DNA of 64,000 nt from assembly GCA_000004985.1 (NCBI GenBank), contig GG738923.1; one strand, written 5' to 3'. Every line of letters starts with the position of its first letter. Position 1 is the first letter of the stretch. The position numbers and the translations under genes were made by a program. Below the pieces are notes generated by a model. The model did no database searches. It was not told the DNA's origin and saw only the letters and a program-made list of their open reading frames with translations. Shown here piece by piece: positions 20,622 to 48,170 of the stretch. The stretch comes from Naegleria gruberi (lineage: Eukaryota).

Positions 20622-20695
20622 GCCGTCATAGCTCAGTTGGATAGAGCACAGGACTTCTAATCCTGGGGTCGTGGGTTCGAGCCCCATTGTCGGTA
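20622..20695 (+). tRNA. tRNA-Arg (anticodon UCU)
   Basis: The cloverleaf reads GCCGTCA-TA-GCTC-AGTTGGATA-GAGC-A-CAGGA-CTTCTAA-TCCTG-GGGTC-GTGGG-TTCGAGC-CCCAT-TGTCGGT-A. It has the GTTCGAG T-loop and anticodon loop CT-TCT-AA. The acceptor stem has one U-U mismatch (positions 5-68) and one G-U pair. Confidence 0.8.
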
Positions 20696-32376: not shown

Positions 32377-33204
32377 ATGTCTGATATTGCCACTATCGAA
32401 CCTAGTGCTACACCATCCACTCCTAAAAAGTCATCACCAAAGGCTTCATGTTCTTCTACTCCTTCAAATAGTAGTAAACCAAATGGTGAAGCTATCAATG
32501 TTTCCACTCCAAATTCAGCACTCCACTTGTCTAATCAATATGGTTTTCCATTGAATTATAATGGTCAAATTCAACTCATCTTTGGTAATATGTTTGCTGG
32601 TAAAACCTCGGAATTGTTGAGAAGATTACGTAGATATCAATATGCTCAAAAGGAAACCGTATTGGTAAAGTACATCAATGATGACCGTTACAGTAAGGAA
32701 AATGTGTCAACACACGACTTGGTTCAACAAAAAGCTATTCCGACAGATCGTCTCGAAAAGATTGCTTCACAATTGCTTGGTTATCATGTTATTGGTATTG
32801 ATGAAGGTCAATTCTTCCCTGATTTGGTTGAATTCTGTGAAGCTGCTGCTAATGGAGGTAAAATTGTAATTGTTAGTGCTTTGGATGGTACTTTCCAAAG
32901 AAAACAATTTGGAAATGTTCTTTCATTGGTTCCAATGGCTGAAAGTGTTGTGAAACTTAAGGCTGTTTGTATGGTTTGTGGTAAAGATGCTGCCTTCTCT
33001 AAACGTATCACTGATGAACAACAAACTGAAGTTATTGGTGGATCTGATAAGTATATTGCCACTTGTAGAAAGTGTTATATGACTAGAAATACTCCATATT
33101 CAAAGAAGAGTAAGAGCGTTTTCCAAGATTCCATGTTAGAAGAACATGAAGAATGCTCTGATTATTCTGAACATTGTGAAATTTTCTCTCCTCAAAAACA
33201 CTAA
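32377..33204 (+). CDS. Thymidine kinase, TK1 type, with about 60-aa Ser/Pro-rich N-terminal extension
   Basis: The P-loop is IFGNMFAGKTSELLRR. The Walker B/active-site motif is VIGIDEGQFFPD. The Zn ribbon spans CMVCGKDAAFSKR...ATCRKC. Confidence 0.9.
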   Translation: MSDIATIEPSATPSTPKKSSPKASCSSTPSNSSKPNGEAINVSTPNSALHLSNQYGFPLNYNGQIQLIFGNMFAGKTSELLRRLRRYQYAQKETVLVKYINDDRYSKENVSTHDLVQQKAIPTDRLEKIASQLLGYHVIGIDEGQFFPDLVEFCEAAANGGKIVIVSALDGTFQRKQFGNVLSLVPMAESVVKLKAVCMVCGKDAAFSKRITDEQQTEVIGGSDKYIATCRKCYMTRNTPYSKKSKSVFQDSMLEEHEECSDYSEHCEIFSPQKH

Positions 33205-33698
33205 GCATTCTGTTACAAAAATTGTTGAGCTAGTTCTCAATCTAGGTAGTTACAACCAGTAACGCTCTCTAATGGTAATGCACAAGTTGTATGTGTGCTC
33301 AATCCAACCTAACAACCCACAATATTAAAACATTATTTATTTTAAATCAATTCGGTTTTATTTAATTTCGCCTCTTTGCTAAAATTATATTATTTGCGAT
33401 ATTTAAATGTGCAAAACAAAATCATTCAATTATACTAACAAAAACAAATGAATCAACAACCAAACAATCAAGATAGAGAAATTGCCAAGACTGAAACATG
33501 TCCATGCCCTGAGCAAGATAAAAAACCATTTGACATCTCACAGAAGAAACAGTGTGAGGGAACAAAGAAAGTTTGTGATGAGAATGGATGCAGAGATGTT
33601 CCTTGTTTGTATTTTGCTAGTTAAACTCGCGTTTTATAAGGTTTAAGGCCACTCCCAATAACATTGTAAATAAAATGTACTATTATATTTCAAAAATA

Positions 33699-34799
33699 TT
33701 ACAACCTTGAAGGTCTATAGCTTGTCAATTTCTCTCGCATTTTCAATAACGTTCCAATAGAAGGAATAAAATACAGCGAGCCTAAAATATTAGTGGAAAA
33801 TCTCATAATATGATCATTGTGACCTTGTGGAGTGGCATATTCGCCCTTTCCAACCATGCTCTCCAATTGATGAATGAAGGTTTTTCCAGAGTTTGCATAC
33901 GAAATGAAGAATAATCCATGTTGTGATGAATTTCCAAAGCTCATTGATTGCCTCACAACCTCAATTTCATCTCCGTCCTTTTCTAAAGTGACACGAGCCA
34001 CATGGGAAGTTTCTGGCTTATTTTCCAACTCGATGCTATCCTCTTTCGTTCTTCCAATATCATTCTCTTGTTCTTTCAATGAAAGTGAATTGAAAAATTT
34101 GAGATTGTGAACCCATTTCTGAGCCAAGAGGAAACTATCCTTTTCATTGGTGAGGGTTGCCTCAATTTTCTCTTCCATTTCTTTTGGATTTTCAGTTCCA
34201 TCCTCGAATCCACTCAAATCTCTTCCAAGACCAGATTTCTTATTTCTTCTATGGAGGAATGCATAGGTTTCATCCTGAATTTTCTTTATCAATGGAGAAA
34301 TAAATTCATGATTTGCAAAATCCTGAGTAGCTCTAAAACAATTGTCCATATTTACAGATTTAATGTGAAGAAATAAATCTCCACCAGTATTTGGAAAACC
34401 ACCAAATTTACCCTTCAAATCTTTAGGATATTGTGGAAATATTTCTGCCTGCATATATTCTCTTACATAATCCAGTGAATTATCTTGTATATTTCCTAAA
34501 ATTGAATTGGTCAACTCATATCCAAATCCAACAGCAAACTGTGTGCATTTTTCTTTATTCCACCTCTCCATAATCTGCAAACAAGCTTCCACTAATTTAA
34601 AATAAATTTTCATAGCCTTCCCATTTGATGAACTCTTCAGCTCATCCTTCAATTCAATCGTAACAAAACAAGCATGATCCGAGATTGGAGTTAATATCGT
34701 CGATTGGCAATGTTTCTCACCATGCCGATGATGGTGATGATTCTCATGGTGTGCGTGATGATGATGGTGATGATTATGCAAGTGATGCAGTGAGGACAT
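33699..34799 (-). CDS. DyP-type (dye-decolorizing) haem peroxidase with His-rich N-terminal tract
   Basis: The GxxDG motif is SGFEDGTENP. DyP-like C-terminal ferredoxin-fold segments are present. The N-terminus is MSSLHHLHNHHHHHHAHHENHHHHRHGEKH. Confidence 0.75.
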   Translation of the reverse strand: MSSLHHLHNHHHHHHAHHENHHHHRHGEKHCQSTILTPISDHACFVTIELKDELKSSSNGKAMKIYFKLVEACLQIMERWNKEKCTQFAVGFGYELTNSILGNIQDNSLDYVREYMQAEIFPQYPKDLKGKFGGFPNTGGDLFLHIKSVNMDNCFRATQDFANHEFISPLIKKIQDETYAFLHRRNKKSGLGRDLSGFEDGTENPKEMEEKIEATLTNEKDSFLLAQKWVHNLKFFNSLSLKEQENDIGRTKEDSIELENKPETSHVARVTLEKDGDEIEVVRQSMSFGNSSQHGLFFISYANSGKTFIHQLESMVGKGEYATPQGHNDHIMRFSTNILGSLYFIPSIGTLLKMREKLTSYRPSRL

Positions 34800-34967
34800 T
34801 TTTTTTCTACTTGATTTTTATGTTTGAGGAAAACTTCAAAATTTCCCGCCTCTGTAATCCTCTTCAATATTCAATTATAACTTTATGTTAATCTTAATAA
34901 ATATTATTAAATCAATTCATCAAACCTTTGATATTTATTGTAAACTTGCAAGTTCATCTTTAAAAAA

Positions 34968-36020
34968 ATGTCTCAATACAACAACACTAACACATTCCAT
35001 CCACAACCAACAAATACAACAATAACTTCAGCACCACTCACGAGAGGAATTCGCTCCATTTCTAATTGTCCAGACGTGATAGAGGCTCTTGTTCAAGTGT
35101 TGGCTCATCTCGATCCTGTGGTAGAACAATATTTATTCAAACAACAACATGATGATCATCAGATCAAATCGGATGAAAGATCGGAACTTGGGGTAGCCTT
35201 TGATAGGGTATGTAGGAGTGTGTGGAGTCTTGATCAAGGTAGTAGTGAACCTGTTGATGGTTCAGCTTTGGGTGGGTTATTTCCTATGGAAAGTGGTATC
35301 TCCCTTGATTTTGTGGAGGCTTTGAATATTGTGGTCGATGCTTGTCGTGGGAATTTTAATTTTTGTAAAGGAATGACATCTAATTGGATAAGAAGTGATG
35401 ATTGTCCAATATGTGGTTGTAAATCTGCAAGCGAAAGAAAGGAAGAGTTTTGTTCAATCAAGGTGCCAAGTAATCAGTGGAAAGAGTTTGAAAAAAGTGG
35501 AGTGTTGAATCTGAAGGAGGTAGAAACAATTGAAGGATATCATTGTGATGTGTGTTCATTTAGTAAGCCTGCTGAAATTTCTCGTTCCATCAGTCAAGCT
35601 CCACAAATATTGATTTTACAAATGGATCGTTTCTGTTTCGATTATGAAACATTTAATGTTGTTAAAAAGAATGATTTTTACAAGGTTTATCTTAATCAAC
35701 AATTGAAACTATTGATGGAAAATAATTCTTTGGAATCCTATGAATTGGTTGCTGTAGTGAATCATTATGGATTGCAGACATCAGGTTCTTATGGAGGATT
35801 CTTTTTAAATCCAACCAATAGAAGATGGTACAAAGTAGCTTGCCCAAATCAGGTTCCAACTCTTGTTGAAGACTTTAGTACAATCAACAATGTCTCAAAT
35901 TATGTTTATTTCTTTAAGAAGGCAGCTGAAAAGAAATCATGGCAATCTACTGCCTTGTCCAGCCAGTCTGTATCAGATATTTCATTTTCCTTCACGAATG
36001 AAGAAGACTGTGAAATGTAA
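34968..36020 (+). CDS. Divergent ubiquitin-specific protease (peptidase C19)-like protein
   Basis: The Cys-box-like motif is GIRSISNCPDVIEALVQVL. The central CxxC pairs are CPICGC and YHCDVCS. The LILQMDRF motif matches LxLHLKRF. The His-box-like motif is YELVAVVNHYG. Confidence 0.55.
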   Translation: MSQYNNTNTFHPQPTNTTITSAPLTRGIRSISNCPDVIEALVQVLAHLDPVVEQYLFKQQHDDHQIKSDERSELGVAFDRVCRSVWSLDQGSSEPVDGSALGGLFPMESGISLDFVEALNIVVDACRGNFNFCKGMTSNWIRSDDCPICGCKSASERKEEFCSIKVPSNQWKEFEKSGVLNLKEVETIEGYHCDVCSFSKPAEISRSISQAPQILILQMDRFCFDYETFNVVKKNDFYKVYLNQQLKLLMENNSLESYELVAVVNHYGLQTSGSYGGFFLNPTNRRWYKVACPNQVPTLVEDFSTINNVSNYVYFFKKAAEKKSWQSTALSSQSVSDISFSFTNEEDCEM

Positions 36021-36289
36021 ATTCTTCTTGAACTGTTGTCGACCATTATAAGCTGTGAAAATCTTGAATTCTCCCTTTCCATCATCGTTTGGAAACCAAA
36101 CTAATCTGGATTGTTCTGGATTTTCAACATCCCCAATAAATTCTCTTGTCCAATTCAGAGTTTACGAATTTATCCATCATTCCAACCATATTCCAAATGC
36201 CAAATGTGAAATTATTAATGATATGGTGAATAATACACAACAGGAGAAAATGAATTTCCAATTTTTATTAGAATTTTAATTTAAAAAAA

Positions 36290-37159
36290 ATGAAGCGGTC
36301 AGTAACTAATGAAGGCCATCAAAAGAACAAGAAAAAGAAAAGCACTTATTCCAATTCTTCATCATTTAAATTTGTTGATTTGCCTTCCGAAATGATTGGT
36401 AACATTCTTGATTATTCACTCATAAGTGATGGATTATCACTCGTCACTACATGTAAACAATTCCACAACGATCACTACAACGAACATTTATTGTTCTCTC
36501 CATGCAAGTATATGAAATTAATGGCAAATATGACACCTTATCAATTGAAACTGCACCATAAAGCAGCAACTCATATGAAAGATCAAATGAGAGCCAAAGA
36601 GATTTATGAGAATGAAAAGAAGAAATTCAAATGCATGTTGAAATTAATTAAAAAAGAAATTGGAAAGAAAACAGCACGTGAATTGAAAAAAAAACTTTTC
36701 AAGAAAGTGATTTATAACAAAATAGATGCACAAGACACCAGAAGAGAAATAACAATTGGAGAATGTTCTATCATTCATGAATCAAGTTTTGAGTCAAATA
36801 TTCAAAGTTATGAAAGTATTGATGCACAGGTTTGGTATTCATGTAAAATTGTTAAGGATAATGAGGTTTATGAAATAGTTGACAACTGTTCATGGTTATG
36901 TGACAGTCAAGGAACGTGCACTACTGATGATCTAAATGAGCTATTAACTATTGATCATAATATAGATTCTAAATTAGTGTTAGCTTGCTTGCTCATGACA
37001 GCTCCTCTACTGAGCTGGTCAGTTGTGAAGAATGAATATCCAACTTCATTTTCTTCGAATAAGCCACCTGAAATATATTTTAGTGGTTCGATTACTTTAA
37101 CCAAGCAATCAGCTTCTATTAATGATATCGTGCAACAAGTGTTCAATTGGGCCATATAA
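36290..37159 (+). CDS. F-box-like domain protein, 289 aa
   Basis: The N-terminal LPSEMIGNILDYSLISDGLSLVTTCKQFH matches the F-box pattern. The rest is unrecognised. Confidence 0.4.
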   Translation: MKRSVTNEGHQKNKKKKSTYSNSSSFKFVDLPSEMIGNILDYSLISDGLSLVTTCKQFHNDHYNEHLLFSPCKYMKLMANMTPYQLKLHHKAATHMKDQMRAKEIYENEKKKFKCMLKLIKKEIGKKTARELKKKLFKKVIYNKIDAQDTRREITIGECSIIHESSFESNIQSYESIDAQVWYSCKIVKDNEVYEIVDNCSWLCDSQGTCTTDDLNELLTIDHNIDSKLVLACLLMTAPLLSWSVVKNEYPTSFSSNKPPEIYFSGSITLTKQSASINDIVQQVFNWAI

Positions 37160-38184: not shown

Positions 38185-39191
38185 ATGATGACAAGAAATT
38201 CTAGTCCGCTAGAAGGAAGAGAGGAGAATGGTGGACAACAAGATGATTTGAATGTTGTGTCATCAGCATCATCATTAACAAACTCATCATCATTTAATGG
38301 AAAGGATGCACAGCAATATGTGGGAGGAGTTTATAATAATAGACCCTCACCTATTAGGTATACATCACATTTAGGAATGCCAAAACATCAAAGTCCAAAT
38401 ACTGTGGCGAATGCAAATAGCTCTTCTTCAAATAGTGGTGGAGATGTGAAGGAAGAGGTGAATCCACTAAAGAGAAGATATTGTGATAATGATGATATGT
38501 TATTCGAGGTGCAAGAGAAACAATTACAAACACAGAAATATTTAACAATAGTACCATATGAAATCACCAATCATGATAGCGGTCAATTATTGACCTGTGT
38601 GAGAGGAAATAGACTTCCCATGTTGGTGAACAAGTTGGTTGATGAGGTGAATGAATATTTGAAAACTAATTCAGAAGAGGATGAGGAGGAAAAGGTTGTG
38701 GATGTGTATGCAATCCAAACAATGTTTTTGAATACAATTATGAGAATTGATTTATTTAATAACGAAGTGGGTGTTTATGATAGTGTTAAAAATAGAGTAT
38801 TTAAAGATTTGAAAATGGTAATGAGCCCTCCTGATTACTATCCGTTCAGTAAGTTTATTTTGAGTATGGACCTATTCACAATTTATCAGATTATCCAACA
38901 TTTTATGGAAAGGAAACTGATGAAGAATCTATTACAAATTATAACAAATTAATGGAATCTGATGAGATGTTTGATTTGAGGAAAAGTTATCAAACAAAAT
39001 ATACCAAAGCTTGGACTAAGGAGGAAAGAAAGAAATTCCAAGAAGGTTTAAAATTATTTGGTTATGGACATGATAGTAATAAGAAGATTGCTGAACATAT
39101 GGGCTCTTCAATTCACCCTAATCAAGTAGCTCACGAAAAACAAAAATTACAGCAACGTCACCAAAAGAAGAGAAAGAGAGCAAAGAAATAA
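38185..39191 (+). CDS. Hypothetical protein followed by a Myb/SANT-like ORF, in two frames overlapping at TAATG 38950-38954; possibly one gene
   Basis: ORF 38137..38952, with a probable start at ATGATG 38185, has no recognised domain. ORF 38952..39191 carries the SANT/Myb-like segment WTKEERKKFQEGLKLFGYG...KIAEHMG and a basic tail. Confidence 0.4.
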
Positions 39192-39205
39192 CTGTGGAAT
39201 CAATT

Positions 39206-42004
39206 TTATGGTCTTTCGGCTAACATTTGATTAATGTTGAGAATAATGGAAGAGTAGACTGTGACTGATTCTAAATAGTTTTGAATGAGGATTCTTTCAT
39301 TGTGACCGTGAATTCTTTGGAGATCTTCAGTCTTCTTTACGAGTCTCATTGGCAAATAGCCATATGCAAAATCACTCAACTTTCTATAATACTTGCTATC
39401 ACTACCAGCAATAAATAAATAAGGTGAAACAATCACATCTGGTTGAATATGATTAATTGCTCTCTTTACAACTTCAAACTCTACACAATCAACACAAGAT
39501 ACAGAGGAAGCTTCTTGACAATCGATCATTAAAGGTGTGACGGTAATGTTTGGATGATTGACAACCTTTTCCAAGTGGCTCTTGACACTTTGCAAATTAT
39601 CATACGGAGAGAATCTAGTATTGAGAATAAAGTTTGCCTTAGATGGCATTACATTACTTTGGACACCAGCAGCCACAATGGTTGGAGCAAAGCTAGTTCT
39701 AGCCAAAGCATTTGGTGGACCACCAATATAAGACAATGCAATACTCAAAGGATAGGCCAAAATATCAAGATTTGCAACAATGGCCTTCATGATATAACCT
39801 TCAGAGTGTGGAGCCAAACTGAGGAGAACATTATGAATGATTGGTTTAAGTAAATGGGCAGGCATTGGATTATTTTCAATTTCAAGGATGGCCTTTGACA
39901 ATGTTCCAATACAGCTAGTTCTTCCTGGCATGGAAGCATGACCTGGATTACAATTGGCTTGAATGTCGAAATTACAATAGCCCTTTTCTGCAATGGCAAC
40001 AAAGGCAATTGGAGAGGCAACACCTGGAAATTGTTGGTCAGCAATTTGACCTCCTTCATCCAAAACAAATGCAAATCTGACATTCTTCTTCAAAAAGTAT
40101 GAAGTAACTTTGGCAGCTCCATGAACTCCTCCAATTTCTTCATCCATACCAATAACAACATAGGTATCTCTTTGAGGTTTAACCAATAAATTTTCTCTTC
40201 TCAATTGATTAAGAGCTTCCAAAATTTCATAAACTCCATTCTTATCATCCAATGTGCCTCTTCCATGCAAGAAACCATTCACTTGTTTACCACTAAATGG
40301 TGGATATTCCCATTTAGATTCATCATTGATTGGCACAACATCCACATGTCCAGTCAATAGAACTGGTTTCTTTTCCTTATCACTTCCTCTCCATACCCAA
40401 ACTCTCGAAGCAAGAAAATCATCCTCTCCCTTAACTTCACTTTGAATAATATCTTGAGTAATTTCCTCCAAAACTCCCTCACTTTCAGAGAATAAAAGTG
40501 GGAAATCCTTCACCATTTGATCAAACAATTCATGGAAAAGTTGTTTATCCTTCTGATAATCAATAGTTGGTTTCTGAATAGCCCTAGCCAATCTCAACAC
40601 TGCATCAGCCTGTTCCTCCTTGCTCCAATTTAATTTACTAAATTGTTCGGAAGCCTTTGATTGTTCAATTCTCTTTGAAAATTCCAAATCTCTTTCTTTA
40701 ATAATTTTCATATTAAATGTATAGGTTCGGAATGCCATCAATCCAATCAACCCGATCGCAGCCAAGAATAATAATTTTAAAATCGATTTGATGAGTGAGC
40801 ACGCAAGATTTGAAATGGCCATTTTTTTAAGATGAAAACGGAGTGAATGTTCGGACAATTGTGCAGATGGACATTTTATGCATGGTGAGATGAAAGTTGT
40901 TTTTTGAGTTTCTCCAAAGATTATATCAGAAACAGATTTGATATCATCTTCTGAGGTAGCATTAACAATATGATAGGAATCAAGTGTATTTCTATCTATT
41001 TTCTTGAAATATTGTGTAATGATCGAGTTGATAACTAGTTTAAGATAATGATTAGCAATTTCTGATCTTTCTAATTCTGGTAAAATATTCGAAACGAGTT
41101 CTCTATCATATTTCACTCCATTTTCCAATTTTTTACAAAGAATATCTGGTTTTACAAAGAGAATGATCTTACGAGAAGGAATAAACCATCTCGTATTCAT
41201 AACCTCACCAATTAGGGATAGAGATTCGTCCATTCTTTGAACACTGTCATCTTCCATTATAGTTTGATTAAATTCTGAAAGAGAAACCATGTAAACTAAT
41301 GTATGAACATCCTCAAAGAAATGAATCCAAATCTTTCTTGAATTTCTCCTTCCCACAACATCAATCACTTGAATTTCAGTGTTTCGTCTCGTAATAGTTT
41401 CGTATATTGAAATTCCTTTAGATGTGGAAGAAATCAATGAATAGGGAGAAAATATTTTCCCACGTTCAATTCTCAAAACTAATTCCTTAACATTTTCGTA
41501 CATTGAAATTCCACCTCTACTCCACACCAATTCATAAAACTCTCTAAAAAAGGAAATTTTCCACAGATTGACCAATATTTCAACGCAATCTATTTTTTGC
41601 AATTCCATTTCTAAACAGTTGCTAGCATTATCTGTTGCACTTTCGAATAATAATCTCATCTCAGGTCGAATAATTTCTTTCAACAAGTAATTTCTCTCTT
41701 GCTCTCCCATCTCTTCCCAAATTCTCTCAACAACCAGCGAGCAGACAATTTGCAAATTATTTGCAAAGTTTGCTTCCATGTCGTCACGAAAAGTTGTTTC
41801 TATTCTTGTTTCGGTTTTTGCTGTTCTTGTTTCGGTTGTTGATACGAGTTGTAACATGTGAAATAATGTTGATTTGCCAGAATCGGAGGGACCTAGTAGG
41901 AGAACTTTTGAACATGGGCGATTTTTAATAATATTATAATTGGATTGTGTTAATGTGACATTTGGATTGGCGTTTGACTTGGTGTGTGATGGTTTTGTGC
42001 CCAT
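39206..42004 (-). CDS. Fusion protein: G-protein alpha-subunit-like domain + TM helix + peptidase M20 (carboxypeptidase S/Cps1-like) domain, 932 aa, single ORF
   Basis: The N-terminus begins MG. The G-alpha P-loop is KVLLLGPSDSGKSTLFHML. The switch II-like segment is VIDVVGRRNSRKIWIHFFEDVHTLVYMVSLSEF, where GGQ is replaced by VGR. A degenerate NKxD motif (ILFVKPD) and a TCATDT-like motif (HIVNATSEDD) follow. The TM helix LACSLIKSILKLLFLAAIGLIGLMAF comes next. M20 motifs HVDVVP, GRGTLDDKNG and DEEIGG follow. Confidence 0.75.
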   Translation of the reverse strand: MGTKPSHTKSNANPNVTLTQSNYNIIKNRPCSKVLLLGPSDSGKSTLFHMLQLVSTTETRTAKTETRIETTFRDDMEANFANNLQIVCSLVVERIWEEMGEQERNYLLKEIIRPEMRLLFESATDNASNCLEMELQKIDCVEILVNLWKISFFREFYELVWSRGGISMYENVKELVLRIERGKIFSPYSLISSTSKGISIYETITRRNTEIQVIDVVGRRNSRKIWIHFFEDVHTLVYMVSLSEFNQTIMEDDSVQRMDESLSLIGEVMNTRWFIPSRKIILFVKPDILCKKLENGVKYDRELVSNILPELERSEIANHYLKLVINSIITQYFKKIDRNTLDSYHIVNATSEDDIKSVSDIIFGETQKTTFISPCIKCPSAQLSEHSLRFHLKKMAISNLACSLIKSILKLLFLAAIGLIGLMAFRTYTFNMKIIKERDLEFSKRIEQSKASEQFSKLNWSKEEQADAVLRLARAIQKPTIDYQKDKQLFHELFDQMVKDFPLLFSESEGVLEEITQDIIQSEVKGEDDFLASRVWVWRGSDKEKKPVLLTGHVDVVPINDESKWEYPPFSGKQVNGFLHGRGTLDDKNGVYEILEALNQLRRENLLVKPQRDTYVVIGMDEEIGGVHGAAKVTSYFLKKNVRFAFVLDEGGQIADQQFPGVASPIAFVAIAEKGYCNFDIQANCNPGHASMPGRTSCIGTLSKAILEIENNPMPAHLLKPIIHNVLLSLAPHSEGYIMKAIVANLDILAYPLSIALSYIGGPPNALARTSFAPTIVAAGVQSNVMPSKANFILNTRFSPYDNLQSVKSHLEKVVNHPNITVTPLMIDCQEASSVSCVDCVEFEVVKRAINHIQPDVIVSPYLFIAGSDSKYYRKLSDFAYGYLPMRLVKKTEDLQRIHGHNERILIQNYLESVTVYSSIILNINQMLAERP

Positions 42005-44665: not shown

Positions 44666-47600
44666 GCATCTAGATCCTCTTCATCTTCATCAAAGGATAA
44701 TTCGGGTAGATTCTCTGAATTTGTTGCCCTCTGTAAAGACATTGAAGAGGTATCGGCTCACACTGAAAAGAGTCAAGTGATGAAGGAGTTTCTATCCGAT
44801 TTCAAGGGAGATGTTTATTTGTTGTATAAATTATTATTTGCAAAGGAAAATCAGAGAAAGTTTAATTTAAAAGATAAGAAACTTGTTGATGTTTGTGCAA
44901 GTGCATTCGGAGAAGATCTTGATGAAATGATTGATCACATGGATTCTAAAGGAGATGTTTCTGAAACTTTAAAGAAATATTTAGTGAGAAGTGATCATGC
45001 AAGAGATAAAGGAATTGTTACTTTGAAACAGGTTGATGATTTCCTTGAAGAATTAACACAATTATCAAAGAAAGAAGATCAAATTCGTGCTTTTAAGAAA
45101 TTTGTAAATGATAAGTTAACTGGAGATGAATTGAAATTTATATGTAGAATAATTTGTAAAGATTTAAAGATTAGAGCTGGACCAAAATATTTATTAGCAG
45201 CACTTCATTCTGATGCTTATCAATCCTATATTTTAACACATGATTTGAAACAAATTGTAAATGTTATAACTAGTGGAAGTGATTTAAAAAATTTATCAAT
45301 GACAGCTCAATCACTTTTAGATATTGATGCATTGATTAAAGATGCAGATAGTGATGATGAAGGTACAAATTTTGATATGATGAATATATCAGATGATGAA
45401 GATGATAAAAAGAAGAAATCATCCAAAGCAACTTCTTCCAATGATAAAAAGAAGACAATTGATAAAAAGAAGAGTAGTAAATCATCAGATAATTCTGATA
45501 AGGATGATGATTCTGGAGATGAAACAGATATTGGTGAAAATGTGGATGATATTGAGGAAAAACCTGAAGAACTTGTAGATGAAGAATCAGAGGATGATTC
45601 TAAAAAGAAAAAGAAGAATAAGAAGGCTCCTAAGAAGATTAAAATATCAACCAAGATGAAACTTTTCCATCCTGTCAAACCAATGCTTGCTCGTCCAAGT
45701 AAGACTTATGATGATGTTATTGCTCGTTGTCCAAATGGTTTTTATTCTGAACTTAAATATGATGGTGAAAGAATTCAAATTCACTATGATAGAAAAAATG
45801 ATGAAATCAAATATTTTAGTAGAAATTTGAAAGATGTTCAAGAGTATAAGATCAAATCTGTAAAAAAGTATATTTCTAAAGCTATTAAGGAAAAGGTTGA
45901 ATCTGTAATTTTAGATGGTGAAATTTTAATGATGGATACAAAGACAAATAAGATTCTTCCATTTGGTACACTTGGTAAAAATGTTAGACAAGATCACAAA
46001 GATGCTGTAACAACTATATTTTTATTTGATATATTGTATTATAATGGTAAATCACTCCTTTCAGTTCCTTTATATAAGAGAAAGGCATTAATGACTAAAA
46101 TTGTAAATCCAATCAAACATAGAGTAATGTTAGGTGAATATTTGGTTGTAAAGGGTTCAAAACAAACAAGAGAAGCTATTGTTTCTGCTGAAATGAGTGC
46201 AATGATTAAGAAGGGTGAAGAAGGTTTAGTGGTATGTATTATTTTCAAATTTATTATTAATTTTTTTATTAACAATTTTACATATTAGTTAAAAGATTTA
46301 TGTTCTCCATATGAACCTAATGCTAGACATTGGCTTAAAATGAAAAAAGATTACTTGAAAGGTATGGCAGATAGTGTAGATCTTGTTGTTCTAGGAGCTT
46401 ATCTTGGTACAGGTAGTAAAGGTGGTTTAATGTCTGTATTCATGATGGGTTCTTTTGACAAGAAATTAGGAAAGTGGAGAATTATTTGTAAATGTGGTAA
46501 CGGACACGATGATCAAACTATTGAAACATTGAATGAAGAATTGAAATCAAATATGAAAAGAATCAGTAAGGATCCTTCATTGGTTCCAGATGATATTGAT
46601 ATTCATACTAATGCTCTTGTACCTGATTTTATTGTTAAAGATCCAAAAAAGAGTGTTGTTTGGGAAATTCAAGGAGCTGAATTTTCAGTTTCCTCAAGAA
46701 AAGACAGACCAATTTCTGTCAGATTCCCTAGAGTTACAAAAATTAGAGATGATAAGGATGTTTTAGATCATACCAATTATCAAGAAATTATCAAATTGAA
46801 AAATGAAAGTAATAGAAAAGGTTTAGTGCCTATTTTTGGAGATGCTGATGCAGGAGATGATTCTGATGAAAGTGTAGATGTAAAAGATAAAAAGAAACGT
46901 TCCAGAGCTAAAAAATCAAAATCTGATGATGAAGAAGATGAATCAGATTCAAGCTCAAAGAAAAAGAAAAATTCAAGAAAGAAGAAGATAAATTCCTCAG
47001 ATGATGAAGATGATGAGGATGATAAAAAGTCAGCTAAAAAGGCTAATGATAAGAAAAAATCAAAATCCTCAGATAATTCTGATGGTGAAGATGATGATCC
47101 AAAAGCAAAGAAAGCTAAAAAGTCAACTATTGGTATCAAATTATCTGATATTGATACTATTAATGACTCTTCTACTCCAGAACAAATCTATTACATTTAT
47201 GGTGATTTTATGAAAATGCCAATGAATAAGGAAGAAAAACTAATTTCACATTGTGTAGATGACTCTAGTAGATGGTCAGATAAAGGATCAATGGGAAATA
47301 TTGAACTCTTGTATGGTGAAGATATTAAGAAGGCTTACACTGATGATATGAACATAATTGGTGATGCTCAAATTGTTGTAGCATTACCAAATCATTTATG
47401 TAATATGGTATGTCTTCAATTTGTCAAGAAAGGATCTGCACCAAAAGTTGACTATCATGCTTTGGATGAATGTTTAAAGAAATGTGCTACCTACATGAAT
47501 CAAAAAAAGATTGGTACATTCCATTTATATAGATTGCATCACGCCATTTCTGGTTTGGATTGGAATAGAGTTGAACAACTTTTGAAGGAAAATCTTTCAA

Positions 47601-47677
47601 ACAAGGGATTTGCTGTTTTCATCTATACAAAGGATAGAGATGATAAGGATAGAGTTAATGAATCAAAAAATAAGTTG
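44666..47677 (+). CDS. ATP-dependent DNA ligase I-like, with C-terminal macro (TARG1/OARD1-like) domain; truncated by assembly gap; 5' exon(s) uncertain
   Basis: The DNA-binding-domain similarity is RFSEFVALCKDIEEVSA... The adenylation motif I is ELKYDGERIQIHY and motif VI is FPRVTKIRDDKD. Intron: 46232-46288 (GTATGT...TAG). An upstream acceptor at 44665/44666 implies a further 5' exon. K/D/E/S low complexity lies at about 45340-45660 and about 46810-47110. The macro-like segment runs from about 47180 to the gap. Confidence 0.8.
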
Positions 47678-47727
47678 NNNNNNNNNNNNNNNNNNNNNNN
47701 NNNNNNNNNNNNNNNNNNNNNNNNNNN
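47678..47727. other. Assembly gap (50 N)
   Basis: It is a run of N. Confidence 1.
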
Positions 47728-48170
47728 CTGAAAAGAATGGTTAAATTGGTTGACTTTGGGTTGAGTTGTCAACCAACAGATTCACTAAGAAGGAACATAC
47801 ATTATTTTGTGGAAATAGTAATTATGCATGTCCTGAACTGTTACTAAAGAAGGCATATGGATCTGAAGTTGATGTCTATGCACTAGGAGTCCTTCTCTAT
47901 AAGATACTGTTTGGTTGTTTCCCATTTCGTGGAGCTCAACAGAAATTGCTCATGCACTTTACAGTCCCACTGAAGGATGATGTAAATGGAGATGATGCAA
48001 TGGGAAGTGATGATTGTGGTCAGAATATTTCGAAATGTTGTAAAGATTTGTTGCATAATATTTTGGAAGTCAATTGTGAAAAGAGATTTTCCATACAAGA
48101 TATCAAGAATCATCAATGGTACAAGATTGGAAAAACTCAGAAGGTGGATTTACTAGAAAGTCACGAATAA
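47728..48170 (+). CDS. Ser/Thr protein kinase C-terminal fragment (subdomains VII-XI), CAMK-like; frameshift near 47755-47845
   Basis: The frame from 47728 holds VKLVDFGLS (DFG). A second frame (ORF 47766..48170) holds FCGNSNYACPELL (APE) and DVYALGVLLYKILFGCFPF, ending HQWYK. The 5' part is lost in the gap. Confidence 0.65.

What the first reader, a model, noticed from the sequence alone, without database searches (positions are those of the whole stretch)
39206..42004. G-alpha-like domain fused through a TM helix to an M20 metallopeptidase
One uninterrupted 932-codon ORF encodes three parts in order. First comes a myristoylation-type MG N-terminus and a G-alpha fold with recognisable G1 (GPSDSGKST), switch I/II, G4 and G5 segments. 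Next comes a single hydrophobic helix. Last comes a complete Cps1-type M20 peptidase core (HVDVVP, GRGTLDDKNG, DEEIGG). The catalytic Gln of switch II (DVGGQ) is replaced by Arg (DVVGRR), and NKxD has degenerated to VKPD. This suggests a GTPase-impaired or nucleotide-specificity-altered pseudo-G-alpha. Yeast Cps1 is a type II membrane protein with a short cytosolic tail. Here that tail is replaced by an entire G-alpha-like module. This would put a heterotrimeric-G-protein-like switch on the cytosolic face of a luminal or extracellular peptidase, an architecture I do not recognise from described families.
Basis: partly seen in the sequence, partly recalled or inferred. Interest (0 to 1): 0.75.

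Follow-up and report, generated by a model that had tools for sequence, protein, structure and literature searches.

The report
G-alpha domain fused to membrane peptidase
In the amoeba Naegleria gruberi, a copy of an unusual G-protein alpha subunit has been joined in frame to the front of a membrane-anchored M20 metallopeptidase gene, giving a domain combination found in no relative; it looks real in the DNA, but whether it is made as a single protein was not tested.

Summary
Window 39206-42004 (minus strand) is one 932-codon ORF. It encodes MGTKPS, a complete G-alpha domain (Pfam E 5.5e-42), one hydrophobic helix (about aa 404-425), and an M20 peptidase with dimerisation domain and all metal and catalytic residues intact.

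The window is from Naegleria gruberi NEG-M. The fusion appears specific to this species. The M20 orthologues in N. fowleri, N. lovaniensis, Willaertia magna and a metagenome relative are stand-alone proteins. Each has a 2-25 aa tail before the same anchor helix and no G-alpha nearby. The closest G-alpha relatives are stand-alone N. gruberi paralogues.

The join is precise. Homology to the paralogues stops at Ile376. Eighteen linker codons follow. Then comes Met395 with the A-run start context of Naegleria genes, which is the old M20 start.

Q-to-R in switch II and VKPD for NKxD are also found in the stand-alone paralogues, so they need not result from the fusion. The fused copy is the most divergent, but it remains under constraint (pairwise dN/dS 0.45; conserved core positions kept).

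No transcript or independent assembly across the junction could be examined. The likely product is a type II membrane protein with a hydrolysis-impaired G-alpha-like cytosolic head and a luminal peptidase. The role of the head is unknown.

The parts
39206..42004 (-). Whole 932-codon ORF including the stop codon: G-alpha-like domain, linker, TM helix, M20 peptidase
   Evidence: ORF list; domains
41987..42004 (-). MGTKPS N-terminus, fitting the N-myristoylation consensus MGxxxS. The start codon is preceded by TTTAAAAAA.
   Evidence: The same MGTKPS is found in paralogue P0003. Myristoylation itself is inferred from the consensus, not tested.
40919..41920 (-). G-alpha domain (aa 29-362), comprising the Ras-like and helical domains
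   Evidence: Pfam PF00503 at E 5.5e-42, profile positions 20-329 of 333. Best PDB match is 6ne6, N. fowleri Galpha7, at E 2.7e-24. The AlphaFold secondary-structure order is b1-a1-helical domain-b2-b3-a2-b4-a3-b5-aG-a4-b6-a5.
41867..41893 (-). G1 P-loop GPSDSGKST (aa 38-46), intact GxxxxGK[ST]
   Evidence: alignments
41792..41836 (-). Insertion specific to this copy (aa 57-71, TETRTAK/TETRIET), made by a tandem duplication of about 21 nt in the linker after helix a1
   Evidence: absent from the paralogues; DNA repeat ACCGAAACAAGAA twice
41396..41440 (-). Switch I region SLISSTSKGISIYET (aa 189-203). The catalytic Arg (Gai1 R178) is absent. The Mg-binding Thr is Ser or Gly, depending on the alignment.
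   Evidence: HMMER alignments to 6ne6 and Gt/Gi; pairwise; family-aware alignment
41306..41362 (-). Switch II DVVGRRNSRKIWIHFFEDV (aa 215-233). DxxG is kept. The catalytic Gln is replaced by Arg. G202V, E207S, K210I and C214F (Gai1 numbering) are unique to this copy.
41144..41155 (-). G4 VKPD (aa 284-287) in place of NKxD. The same V/TKPD occurs in all subfamily members.
40955..40966 (-). G5 VNAT (aa 347-350) in place of TCAT
40823..40876 (-). Junction linker KCPSAQLSEHSLRFHLKK (aa 377-394). It matches neither the G-alpha paralogues nor the M20 orthologues. It is probably the former 5' leader of the M20 gene, and it ends in an A-run.
   Evidence: DNA homology to the L001 paralogue ends at window 40878..
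40820..40822 (-). Met395, the ancestral start codon of the M20 gene. Its context is CTTAAAAAA ATG G.
   Evidence: only M1 and M395 of the 23 Met codons carry the A-run, which is also seen at several verified N. gruberi gene starts and at the M20 start in four relatives; the orthologue N-termini align here.
40730..40795 (-). Single hydrophobic transmembrane or signal-anchor helix (about aa 404-425)
   Evidence: Kyte-Doolittle 2.3; conserved with the N-terminal anchor of the orthologues; helix 392-455
39239..40360 (-). M20 peptidase catalytic domain (aa 549-922). Residues present: H553, D555, D586, E622, E623, D649/E650, H899.
   Evidence: Pfam. (nearly invariant columns). (alignment to DapE H67, D100, E134/E135). 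(pLDDT above 90). (Foldseek to DapE, carnosinase and CPG2, E about 1e-22).
39548..39994 (-). M20 dimerisation (lid) domain inserted in the catalytic domain (aa 671-819)
   Evidence: PF07687, E 2.9e-10

Best explanation
This is a real gene fusion specific to Naegleria gruberi.

Origin. A duplicated copy of a gene from a divergent Naegleria G-alpha subfamily landed 54 nt upstream of the start codon of a Cps1/PM20D1-type M20 peptidase gene. The copy carried its own start codon and probably its short upstream region. It had lost the last ~35 codons and its stop codon. It now reads in frame through the old 5' leader into the complete M20 gene.

Product (inferred). A single-pass type II membrane protein. 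The N-myristoylated G-alpha-like head stays in the cytosol. The former N-terminal signal-anchor of the peptidase now acts as an internal anchor. The M20 domain faces the lumen of the secretory or lysosomal pathway, or the outside of the cell.

Activities (inferred from sequence, not measured). The peptidase is most probably active, because all metal ligands and catalytic residues are kept. The G-alpha head probably still binds nucleotide, because the P-loop, DxxG, and the K and D of G4 are kept. It probably cannot hydrolyse GTP in the canonical way, because it has no switch II Gln and no switch I Arg. It would therefore be a permanently 'on', or nucleotide-independent, membrane-pinned interaction or sorting module rather than a cycling switch.

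What is shown and what is not. The DNA-level fusion, its single-species distribution and the continuing constraint on both halves are shown. Topology, expression as one chain and any role of the head are inferred.
For: ORF and domains.

Organism: five window ORFs are exact N. gruberi NEG-M proteins.

Orthologues are unfused:
- P0001/L002: 532 aa, 61% identity.
- N. lovaniensis: 614 aa.
- N. fowleri: 616 aa.
- W. magna: 526 aa.
- All carry M20 domains only. All have tails of 2-25 aa before the same helix. None has a G-alpha within the fetched flanks: up to 8 kb in the three genomes, and 1.6 kb upstream on the L002 contig.

No second example: no protein with both domains appeared among the best 150 hits of a full HMMER scan of 1.84 billion representatives.

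Stand-alone G-alpha paralogues in the same species:
- P0151 (N. gruberi, 69% identity).
- P0003 on contig L001. Its neighbouring CoA-transferase is 524/527 identical to an N. gruberi NEG-M protein.

Breakpoint and retained M20 start.

Constraint:
- G-alpha versus paralogue: dN/dS 0.45 (bootstrap 95% interval 0.33-0.63), dS 0.43.
- Of 81 positions shared with human Gai1, the fused copy lost 10, against 7 and 6 in the paralogues.
- Neutral drift would have closed the frame.
- M20: dN/dS 0.20, catalytic residues invariant.
- No other N. gruberi M20 of this type turned up at E below 1e-40, so this gene may be the species' only copy.

Fold.
Against: - No transcript, proteomic or independent-assembly evidence spans the junction. 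The only independent contig from the same species, L003 (99.5% identical), covers just 38888-39921.
- The exact 932-aa product is not in the protein collection, so I could not see how the published annotation models this locus.
- Met395 keeps a full start context, so a separate M20-only product remains possible.
- The fused G-alpha is the most divergent of its subfamily: 62 unique residues against 34 and 22, and a Pfam score of 147.5 against 172.5 and 185.3 bits. Its unique losses cluster in switch II. It has also lost the conserved C-terminal extension of its paralogues. All of this is compatible with relaxed constraint.
- Pairwise dN/dS cannot separate the two lineages.
- The fusion could be much younger than the duplication. 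In that case, most of the constraint seen would predate the fusion.
Confidence: 0.55

Rival explanations
1. The fusion is real and translated, but the G-alpha head has no function of its own. When the copy displaced the M20 promoter, M20 expression came to depend on the G-alpha start. Selection therefore keeps only the frame open and the head foldable and harmless. The protein is functionally just the peptidase, with a bulky cytosolic tail.
For: - The fused copy is the fastest-evolving member of its subfamily and has the lowest Pfam score.
- It lost the conserved C-terminal extension and gained a low-complexity duplication.
- It is found in a single species.
- Eleven AUG codons precede Met395, so scanning from the 5' end could not reach the M20 start. 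A stop in the head would therefore silence the peptidase.
Against: - Losses at deeply conserved G-alpha positions are no more frequent than in the stand-alone paralogues (10 against 7 and 6 of 81), and most are conservative.
- The P-loop, DxxG, the myristoylation motif and the core motifs are intact.
- Pairwise dN/dS is 0.45, below 1.
- Frame maintenance alone would not protect these residues.
Confidence: 0.22
2. Two products come from one locus. An internal promoter within the 3' part of the G-alpha coding region gives an M20-only mRNA translated from Met395, as in all relatives. The upstream G-alpha reading frame merely lacks its own stop, and the read-through fusion is a minor or non-functional by-product.
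For: - Met395 aligns with the orthologues' start and keeps the A-run start context. Only M1 and M395 have this context among the 23 Met codons.
- Naegleria genes are closely spaced: intergenic gaps here are 150-250 bp.
Against: - Only 54 nt of non-G-alpha sequence lie upstream of Met395. A promoter would therefore have to sit inside coding sequence that is 80% identical to a paralogue with no such role.
- A G-alpha mRNA without a stop codon before the M20 part would in any case encode the fusion.
- Not testable with the tools at hand.
Confidence: 0.15
3. It is a sequence or assembly artefact. A missed stop, a one-base error in the A-run at 40823-40829, or a chimeric join has merged two separate neighbouring genes.
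For: - An A7 run sits exactly at the junction.
- No second assembly covering the junction could be found.
- The exact product is absent from the protein collection.
Against: - Even with a frameshift in the A-run, the two coding regions would abut with no intergenic space, unlike every other gene pair in the window.
- The G-alpha copy truly lacks the ~35-codon tail and stop of its paralogues in all three frames.
- The paralogues are only 80% identical at DNA level, too divergent to cause a misjoin.
- From my own knowledge, not checked here: the NEG-M genome was Sanger-sequenced, so homopolymer errors are unlikely.
- Gaps in accession numbering (D2W1T8 to D2W1U1, EFC36974 to EFC36976, EFC37025) leave room for only one minus-strand model here (weak inference).
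Confidence: 0.07

Closest known systems
Stand-alone G-alpha paralogues of the same Naegleria subfamily: P0151 ('predicted protein [Naegleria gruberi]', 376 aa), P0003 (372 aa, on an N. gruberi-strain contig) and P0152 (263 aa)
   Same: - 65-69% identity to P0003 and P0151 and about 46% to P0152.
- The same V/TKPD in place of NKxD.
- Gly-Arg-Arg in switch II in P0151 and P0152.
- The same missing switch I Arg.
- A short N-terminus.
- MGTKPS shared with P0003.

   Different: - The paralogues end in a conserved extension of about 35-45 aa (IPxNNRMI...LTDIQIIT) followed by a stop. The fused copy is cut at Ile376 and continues into the TM helix and M20.
- The fused copy has extra changes in switch II (G202V, E207S, K210I, C214F in Gai1 numbering).
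- It has a 15-aa duplication insert.
- It has about twice as many unique substitutions.

Heterolobosean M20 orthologues: N. fowleri FDP41_006260, N. lovaniensis C9374_008412, Willaertia magna ABK040_006710, and metagenome protein P0001
   Same: - 49-61% identity over the whole M20 part, including the anchor helix.
- All catalytic and metal residues are identical.
- The gene downstream is the same as in L002.

   Different: They start 2-25 residues before the helix and have no G-alpha domain, either fused or within the fetched flanks (up to 8 kb in the three genomes, 1.6 kb upstream on L002).
Yeast carboxypeptidase S (Cps1) and mammalian PM20D1, M20A subfamily (comparison from established knowledge; JGI names for related hits are 'carboxypeptidase PM20D1')
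   Same: - An M20 catalytic domain plus a dimerisation domain.
- An N-terminal hydrophobic anchor or signal that places the enzyme in the lumen or outside the cell.
- Cps1 is a type II membrane precursor with a short cytosolic tail that carries its sorting signal.
   Different: - Identity is only about 30-38% to the PM20D1-named relatives.
- No member is known to me with a folded signalling domain on the cytosolic side.
- I did not align Cps1 or PM20D1 themselves.
Plant extra-large G proteins (XLGs) and other G-alpha proteins with deviant catalytic motifs (review PMC8584482)
   Same: A G-alpha-like domain with degenerate catalytic residues, joined to another module. Such domains are thought to act with reduced or no dependence on the nucleotide cycle. 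The review notes such deviations for Naegleria.
   Different: XLGs carry a soluble N-terminal extension and are not membrane-spanning. Here the partner is a C-terminal TM helix plus an enzyme on the far side of the membrane.
Seven-transmembrane RGS proteins (AtRGS1; 28 in N. fowleri, PMC9283941)
   Same: A precedent, in the same genus, for a soluble component of the G-protein cycle being covalently tied to a membrane-spanning module.
   Different: In those proteins the fused part is the GAP (RGS box) on a 7TM receptor-like body. Here it is the G-alpha itself on a single-pass ecto-enzyme.
N. fowleri Galpha7 (PDB 6ne6)
   Same: It is the best solved-structure match (E 2.7e-24). The Ras-like core and helical domain align.
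   Different: Galpha7 has the canonical DVGGQR and RxxTTG motifs and is a self-activating, RGS-sensitive GTPase (PMC9283941). It has no TM helix or peptidase.

Membership tests
Heterotrimeric G protein alpha subunit (Pfam PF00503) | Significant full-length match to the G-alpha profile, including the helical domain inserted between a1 and b2 | tested here: met
   E 5.5e-42, 144.5 bits against a cut-off of 48.8, profile positions 20-329 of 333. The secondary-structure order in the model matches G-alpha.
Heterotrimeric G protein alpha subunit (Pfam PF00503) | G1 P-loop GxxxxGK[ST] | tested here: met
   GPSDSGKST at aa 38-46
Heterotrimeric G protein alpha subunit (Pfam PF00503) | Switch II DxxGQ with the catalytic glutamine | tested here: not met
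   DVVGRR: Asp and the second Gly are kept, and Gln is replaced by Arg. Paralogues P0151 and P0152 also have Arg; P0003 has Gln.
Heterotrimeric G protein alpha subunit (Pfam PF00503) | Switch I catalytic arginine and Mg-binding threonine (RxxTxGI) | tested here: not met
   There is no Arg at the R178 position in any alignment (Thr, Ser). T181 aligns with Gly or with Ser (family-aware alignment). This segment of the model has pLDDT below 50.
Heterotrimeric G protein alpha subunit (Pfam PF00503) | G4 NKxD guanine-specificity motif | tested here: not met
   VKPD: Lys and Asp are kept, Asn is lost. This holds across the whole subfamily.
Heterotrimeric G protein alpha subunit (Pfam PF00503) | N-terminal lipid-modification site | tested here: met
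   MGTKPS fits MGxxxS/T. The modification itself was not tested.
Heterotrimeric G protein alpha subunit (Pfam PF00503) | Free C-terminal a5 tail for receptor coupling; G-beta/gamma binding; GTP binding and hydrolysis | not testable with these tools
   The a5 helix (aa 352-363) is followed by a linker and a TM helix, so there is no free C-terminus. The N-terminal helix is not predicted (pLDDT about 30). Biochemistry is needed.
Peptidase family M20 (Cps1/PM20D1-like, M20A) | Peptidase_M20 catalytic domain with an inserted M20_dimer domain | tested here: met
   PF01546 at E 1.5e-24 and PF07687 at E 2.9e-10. NCBIfam PRK08262 at E 1.5e-83, below that equivalog's own cut-off. Foldseek matches DapE, carnosinase and CPG2 at E about 1e-22.
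Peptidase family M20 (Cps1/PM20D1-like, M20A) | Two-metal site ligands (His, Asp, Glu, Glu/Asp, His) and the catalytic Asp and Glu | tested here: met
   H553, D555, D586, E622, E623, D649/E650 and H899 are nearly invariant across 48 M20 homologues. H553, D586 and E622/E623 align with DapE H67, D100 and E134/E135. The last two ligands are assigned by motif (LDEGG, HGHNER).
Peptidase family M20 (Cps1/PM20D1-like, M20A) | N-terminal signal-anchor giving a luminal or extracellular enzyme | tested here: inconclusive
   The same hydrophobic helix is present as in the orthologues, but here it is internal, at aa 404-425. Topology is inferred, not measured.
Peptidase family M20 (Cps1/PM20D1-like, M20A) | Hydrolase activity and substrate | not testable with these tools
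   No close solved or characterised relative was found. The best PDB sequence match is E 3.6e-10, to DapE.

The most novel reading that the evidence does not exclude
The protein is a working one-chain transmembrane signalling device. The dimeric ecto-peptidase domain senses or processes an extracellular or luminal substrate. Through the single helix it changes the partner binding of a membrane-pinned, GTP-locked G-alpha-like head. Alternatively, the head's state controls the trafficking and exposure of the peptidase. Either way, this would be a G-alpha wired directly to an ecto-enzyme without any GPCR.
Probability: 0.1. Interest if true: 0.8.

Novelty: new variant of a known kind. Interest (0 to 1): 0.45.

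Why it matters
G-alpha subunits are almost always free-standing peripheral membrane proteins. I found no described case of a G-alpha domain forming part of an integral membrane protein, tied to an enzyme on the other side of the bilayer.

If the chain is made and the head still binds partners, it would be a natural experiment in three things:
- what a G-alpha fold can do when it is permanently tethered where a receptor would normally sit;
- how new signalling architectures arise in a lineage with dozens of G-alpha genes (44 are reported for N. gruberi; PMC8584482);
- how a biosynthetic membrane peptidase tolerates a 390-residue cytosolic head.

It is also a clean, datable example of gene fusion by capture of a 5' leader. 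Both parents are still recognisable, and unfused versions exist in sister species.

Its weight is limited. It occurs in one species, the head is evolving fast, and no expression evidence could be checked.

Tried and rejected
**Searches that gave nothing useful**
- the homologue search with the full ORF reference returned nothing.
- exact look-ups of the 932-aa product found it neither in the protein collection nor in the contig index.
- the N. gruberi loci of paralogue P0151 and of the CoA-transferase EFC47160 are not in the contig index. I therefore could not check whether NEG-M keeps a P0003-type gene there, and could not get paralogue DNA for a lineage-specific dN/dS.
- two scans of JGI metagenome contigs (junction peptide; G-alpha subfamily alignment) found no relatives.
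- the AlphaFold-database fold search, which might have shown the annotated N. gruberi model, is not installed.
- literature searches found no description of this architecture.
- the key comparative paper on G-protein systems (Anantharaman et al. 2011, Gene 475:63) is not held, so I cannot exclude that it mentions this protein.

**Ideas rejected**
- P0004 (1003 aa) as a second fusion: it is a tandem M20 duplication.
- L001/P0003 as an orthologue from another species: its neighbouring gene is 99.4% identical to NEG-M, so it is a same-species paralogue.
- The 15-aa insert as an unspliced intron: it is a tandem duplication with no plausible splice sites.
- Q-to-R and VKPD as decay after the fusion: the stand-alone paralogues share them.
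- The G-alpha part as a dead pseudogene relic: see the constraint tests.


Full report
**1. What is in the sequence**

Window 39206-42004 on the minus strand is a single ATG-initiated ORF of 932 codons. In-frame stops lie upstream of the start. The surrounding DNA is about 34% G+C, and real sequence ends near 47677; the rest of the window is N.

Pfam finds three domains:
- G-alpha, aa 29-362, covering profile positions 20-329 of 333 (E 5.5e-42).
- Peptidase_M20, aa 549-922 (E 1.5e-24).
- M20_dimer, aa 671-819 (E 2.9e-10).

NCBIfam places the C-terminal half in the PRK08262 group of M20 peptidases (E 1.5e-83, below that equivalog's own cut-off).

There is one strongly hydrophobic stretch, aa 407-425 (mean Kyte-Doolittle 2.3).

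An AlphaFold model built on 52 aligned sequences gives the following:
- The M20 half has pLDDT above 90.
- The G-alpha half has pLDDT 50-80, reflecting a shallow alignment.
- The secondary-structure order is the canonical G-alpha order.
- One long helix spans aa 392-455.

Foldseek matches the model to DapE, carnosinases and carboxypeptidase G2 (E about 1e-22). The best solved-structure sequence match for the N-terminal half is Naegleria fowleri Galpha7, PDB 6ne6 (E 2.7e-24).

**2. Whose genome it is**

Five other ORFs of the window are exact matches to annotated proteins of Naegleria gruberi strain NEG-M on one 326,815-bp scaffold. They include thymidine kinase D2W1T6, D2W1T7 (a Dyp-type peroxidase by Pfam), ubiquitin hydrolase D2W1T8 and D2W1U1.

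The 932-aa product itself is not in the collection as an exact sequence, so I could not see how the published annotation models the locus. The accession series leaves room for only one minus-strand model between D2W1T8 and D2W1U1. This is a weak inference from numbering.

**3. The fusion is confined to this species**

A full HMMER scan of 1.84 billion representative proteins gave no protein with both domains among its best 150 hits. The one long multi-stretch hit, P0004, is a tandem M20 duplication.

The M20 half has clear orthologues, all carrying M20 domains only:

| Source | Protein | Length | Identity |
|---|---|---|---|
| Metagenome contig L002 | P0001 | 532 aa | 61% |
| N. lovaniensis | P0153 | 614 aa | 54% |
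| N. fowleri | P0154 | 616 aa | 52% |
| Willaertia magna | P0155 | 526 aa | 49% |

- In the alignment, each orthologue begins 2-25 residues before the same hydrophobic helix.
- Their genomic loci show no G-alpha gene upstream or anywhere in the fetched flanks: up to 8 kb in the three genomes, and 1.6 kb upstream on L002.
- L002 shares the downstream neighbour and a nearby thymidine kinase gene with the window. The region is therefore syntenic on the 3' side, but synteny stops at the M20 start.

**4. Where the G-alpha half came from**

Its closest relatives are stand-alone proteins:
- P0151, 'predicted protein [Naegleria gruberi]', 376 aa, 69% identity.
- P0003, 372 aa, 65-66% identity.
- P0152, 263 aa, 46% identity.

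P0003 lies on contig L001 and is followed by a convergent CoA-transferase gene. That gene's product is 524/527 identical to N. gruberi EFC47160. Contig L003 from the same sample is 99.5% identical to window 38888-39921. P0003 is therefore a paralogue in the same species, not an orthologue elsewhere.

DNA identity between the fused copy and L001 is 80% over 900 nt and stops at window 40878, which is codon 376. Some similarity extends about 60 nt upstream of the two start codons. This suggests the duplicated segment carried its own leader.

**5. The junction**

- The paralogues continue after ...TTFISPCI with a conserved extension of about 35-45 residues (IPxNNRMI...LTDIQIIT) and then a stop.
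- The fused copy instead reads KCPSAQLSEHSLRFHLKK (aa 377-394) and then Met395-AISNLACSLIK..., which aligns with the N-termini of the M20 orthologues.
- Of the 23 Met codons in the ORF, only Met1 (TTTAAAAAA ATG G) and Met395 (CTTAAAAAA ATG G) are preceded by an A-run.
- The same context is seen at several verified N. gruberi starts in the window and at the M20 start in L002, N. fowleri, N. lovaniensis and Willaertia.

Met395 is therefore the ancestral M20 start. The 18 linker codons are most simply its former 5' leader, captured in frame. None of the three frames around the junction contains the lost tail.

**6. State of the two halves**

M20:
- H553, D555, D586, E622, E623, D649/E650 and H899 are nearly invariant across the homologues.
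- H553, D586 and E622/E623 align with DapE H67, D100 and E134/E135.
- dN/dS against L002 is 0.20, with saturated dS.

G-alpha motifs:
- The P-loop GPSDSGKST and DxxG are intact.
- Switch II reads DVVGRR, so the catalytic Gln is replaced by Arg.
- G4 is VKPD and G5 is VNAT.
- No alignment places an Arg at the switch I catalytic position.
- The Mg-binding Thr aligns with Gly in pairwise alignments and with Ser in the family-aware alignment.

The Arg in switch II (P0151, P0152), V/TKPD (all paralogues) and the missing switch I Arg (all) are subfamily traits also seen in the stand-alone paralogues. P0003 still has DVGGQR.

Features unique to the fused copy:
- A 15-residue insert made by a 21-nt tandem duplication.
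- 62 unique residues, against 34 and 22 in the two closest paralogues.
- A Pfam score of 147.5 bits, against 172.5 and 185.3.

Evidence of continuing constraint:
- At 81 positions shared with human Gai1, the fused copy has lost 10, against 7 and 6 in the paralogues, and most changes are conservative.
- Pairwise dN/dS against L001 is 0.45 (bootstrap 95% interval 0.33-0.63), with dS 0.43.
- In simulations, neutral change of 0.1 substitutions per site or more left the frame open in fewer than 0.1% of replicates.

The head is divergent but not decaying. One caveat applies: the fusion may be younger than the duplication.

**7. How it most likely works**

Shown:
- A DNA-level in-frame fusion of a truncated G-alpha paralogue to an intact signal-anchor M20 gene.
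- The fusion is specific to this species.
- Both halves are under constraint.

Inferred:
- One mRNA runs from the G-alpha start.
- The head folds in the cytosol and is N-myristoylated (MGTKPS fits MGxxxS).
- The former N-terminal signal-anchor inserts as an internal type II anchor.
- The M20 dimer faces the lumen or the exterior, as in its orthologues and, from established knowledge, in yeast Cps1.

Geometrically, both the lipidated N-terminus and the a5 end of a G-alpha point at the membrane. A helix placed about 40 residues after a5 is compatible with the normal membrane orientation of the fold.

Because the head lacks both hydrolytic residues, it would be GTP-locked or nucleotide-independent. 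In this respect it is comparable to the atypical G-alpha proteins reviewed in PMC8584482. It probably acts, if it acts at all, as a constitutive binding or sorting module.

No other N. gruberi M20 of this type was found at E below 1e-40. The species may therefore depend on this gene for that enzyme. That dependence alone would select for an open frame, which is the basis of the 'passenger head' rival.

**8. What could not be settled**

- No transcript or peptide data, and no second assembly, cover the junction.
- An A7 run sits at the junction.
- A separate M20-only transcript starting from Met395 cannot be excluded.
- The comparative paper most likely to have catalogued Naegleria G-alpha architectures is not held. 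Searches of the held literature found no mention of this architecture.
- N. fowleri work describes 13 G-alpha subunits and 7TM-RGS fusions but no G-alpha-peptidase fusion (PMC9283941).

**9. Verdict**

The locus is a real and unusual domain combination in a published genome. It is best read as a recent, single-species gene fusion. It is a new variant built from two known families, not a new kind of system. Interest is moderate. The architecture would surprise a G-protein specialist, but its restriction to one species, its fast-evolving head and the lack of expression evidence all limit the claim.

Noticed in passing
L003:1-108 against window 39922-40029: Metagenome contig L003 is 99.5% identical to the window from 39921 downstream, but its first 108 nt do not match the window at all. 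This is either a chimeric contig end or a structural difference inside the M20 gene in that strain.
   Followed up: partly
window 41792-41836 (minus strand): A tandem duplication of about 21 nt (ACCGAAACAAGAA... twice) adds TETRTAK/TETRIET to the linker between helix a1 and the helical domain. It is absent from all paralogues.
   Followed up: yes
P0151, P0003 and P0152 C-termini; L001:1155-1245: The stand-alone G-alpha proteins of this Naegleria subfamily share a conserved extension of about 35-45 residues after helix a5 (IPxNNRMI.CLFN..L.EKLTDIQIIT). It has no Pfam match and no known role, and it is exactly the part lost in the fused copy.
   Followed up: partly
L001:127-1245: P0003 sits beside a CoA-transferase that is 99.4% identical to N. 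gruberi NEG-M EFC47160, yet no NEG-M protein more than 90% identical to P0003 appeared. It may be an unannotated G-alpha gene in NEG-M, or a presence/absence difference between strains.
   Followed up: partly
L001:1-55: The sequence upstream of the paralogue's start looks like the 3' part of a tRNA gene (GGTTCGAGCCCACC T-arm), cut by the contig end. ARAGORN did not call it.
   Followed up: partly
window 44777-46285 and 46340-47728 (plus strand): An ATP-dependent DNA ligase is split over two adjacent ORFs (N-terminal and adenylation domains, then the C-terminal domain). The gap of about 50 nt is presumably a short intron. The window's real sequence ends soon after, at about 47677.
   Followed up: partly
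window 32377-37159 against L002:3239-5270: In the related contig L002, thymidine kinase lies about 450 bp beyond the M20 gene's downstream neighbour. In N. gruberi, three genes sit between them: a Dyp-type peroxidase, a ubiquitin hydrolase and a 289-aa ORF with no Pfam match. This locus has been rearranged on both sides.
   Followed up: partly
L004:4671-7414 and L005:4531-7434: In N. fowleri (and at the same position in N. lovaniensis), the gene lying divergently upstream of the M20 orthologue encodes a BRO1/ALIX-type protein of the multivesicular-body pathway. That is the route taken by yeast Cps1. This is probably coincidence.
   Followed up: no
P0153 and P0154 (L005, L004): The N. fowleri and N. 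lovaniensis M20 orthologues carry long low-complexity inserts (poly-Ser/Asn/His/Gly/Thr) inside the catalytic domain. N. gruberi, Willaertia and L002 lack them.
   Followed up: no
window 20622-20695 (plus strand): A tRNA-Arg(TCT) gene, the only tRNA in the window.
   Followed up: no
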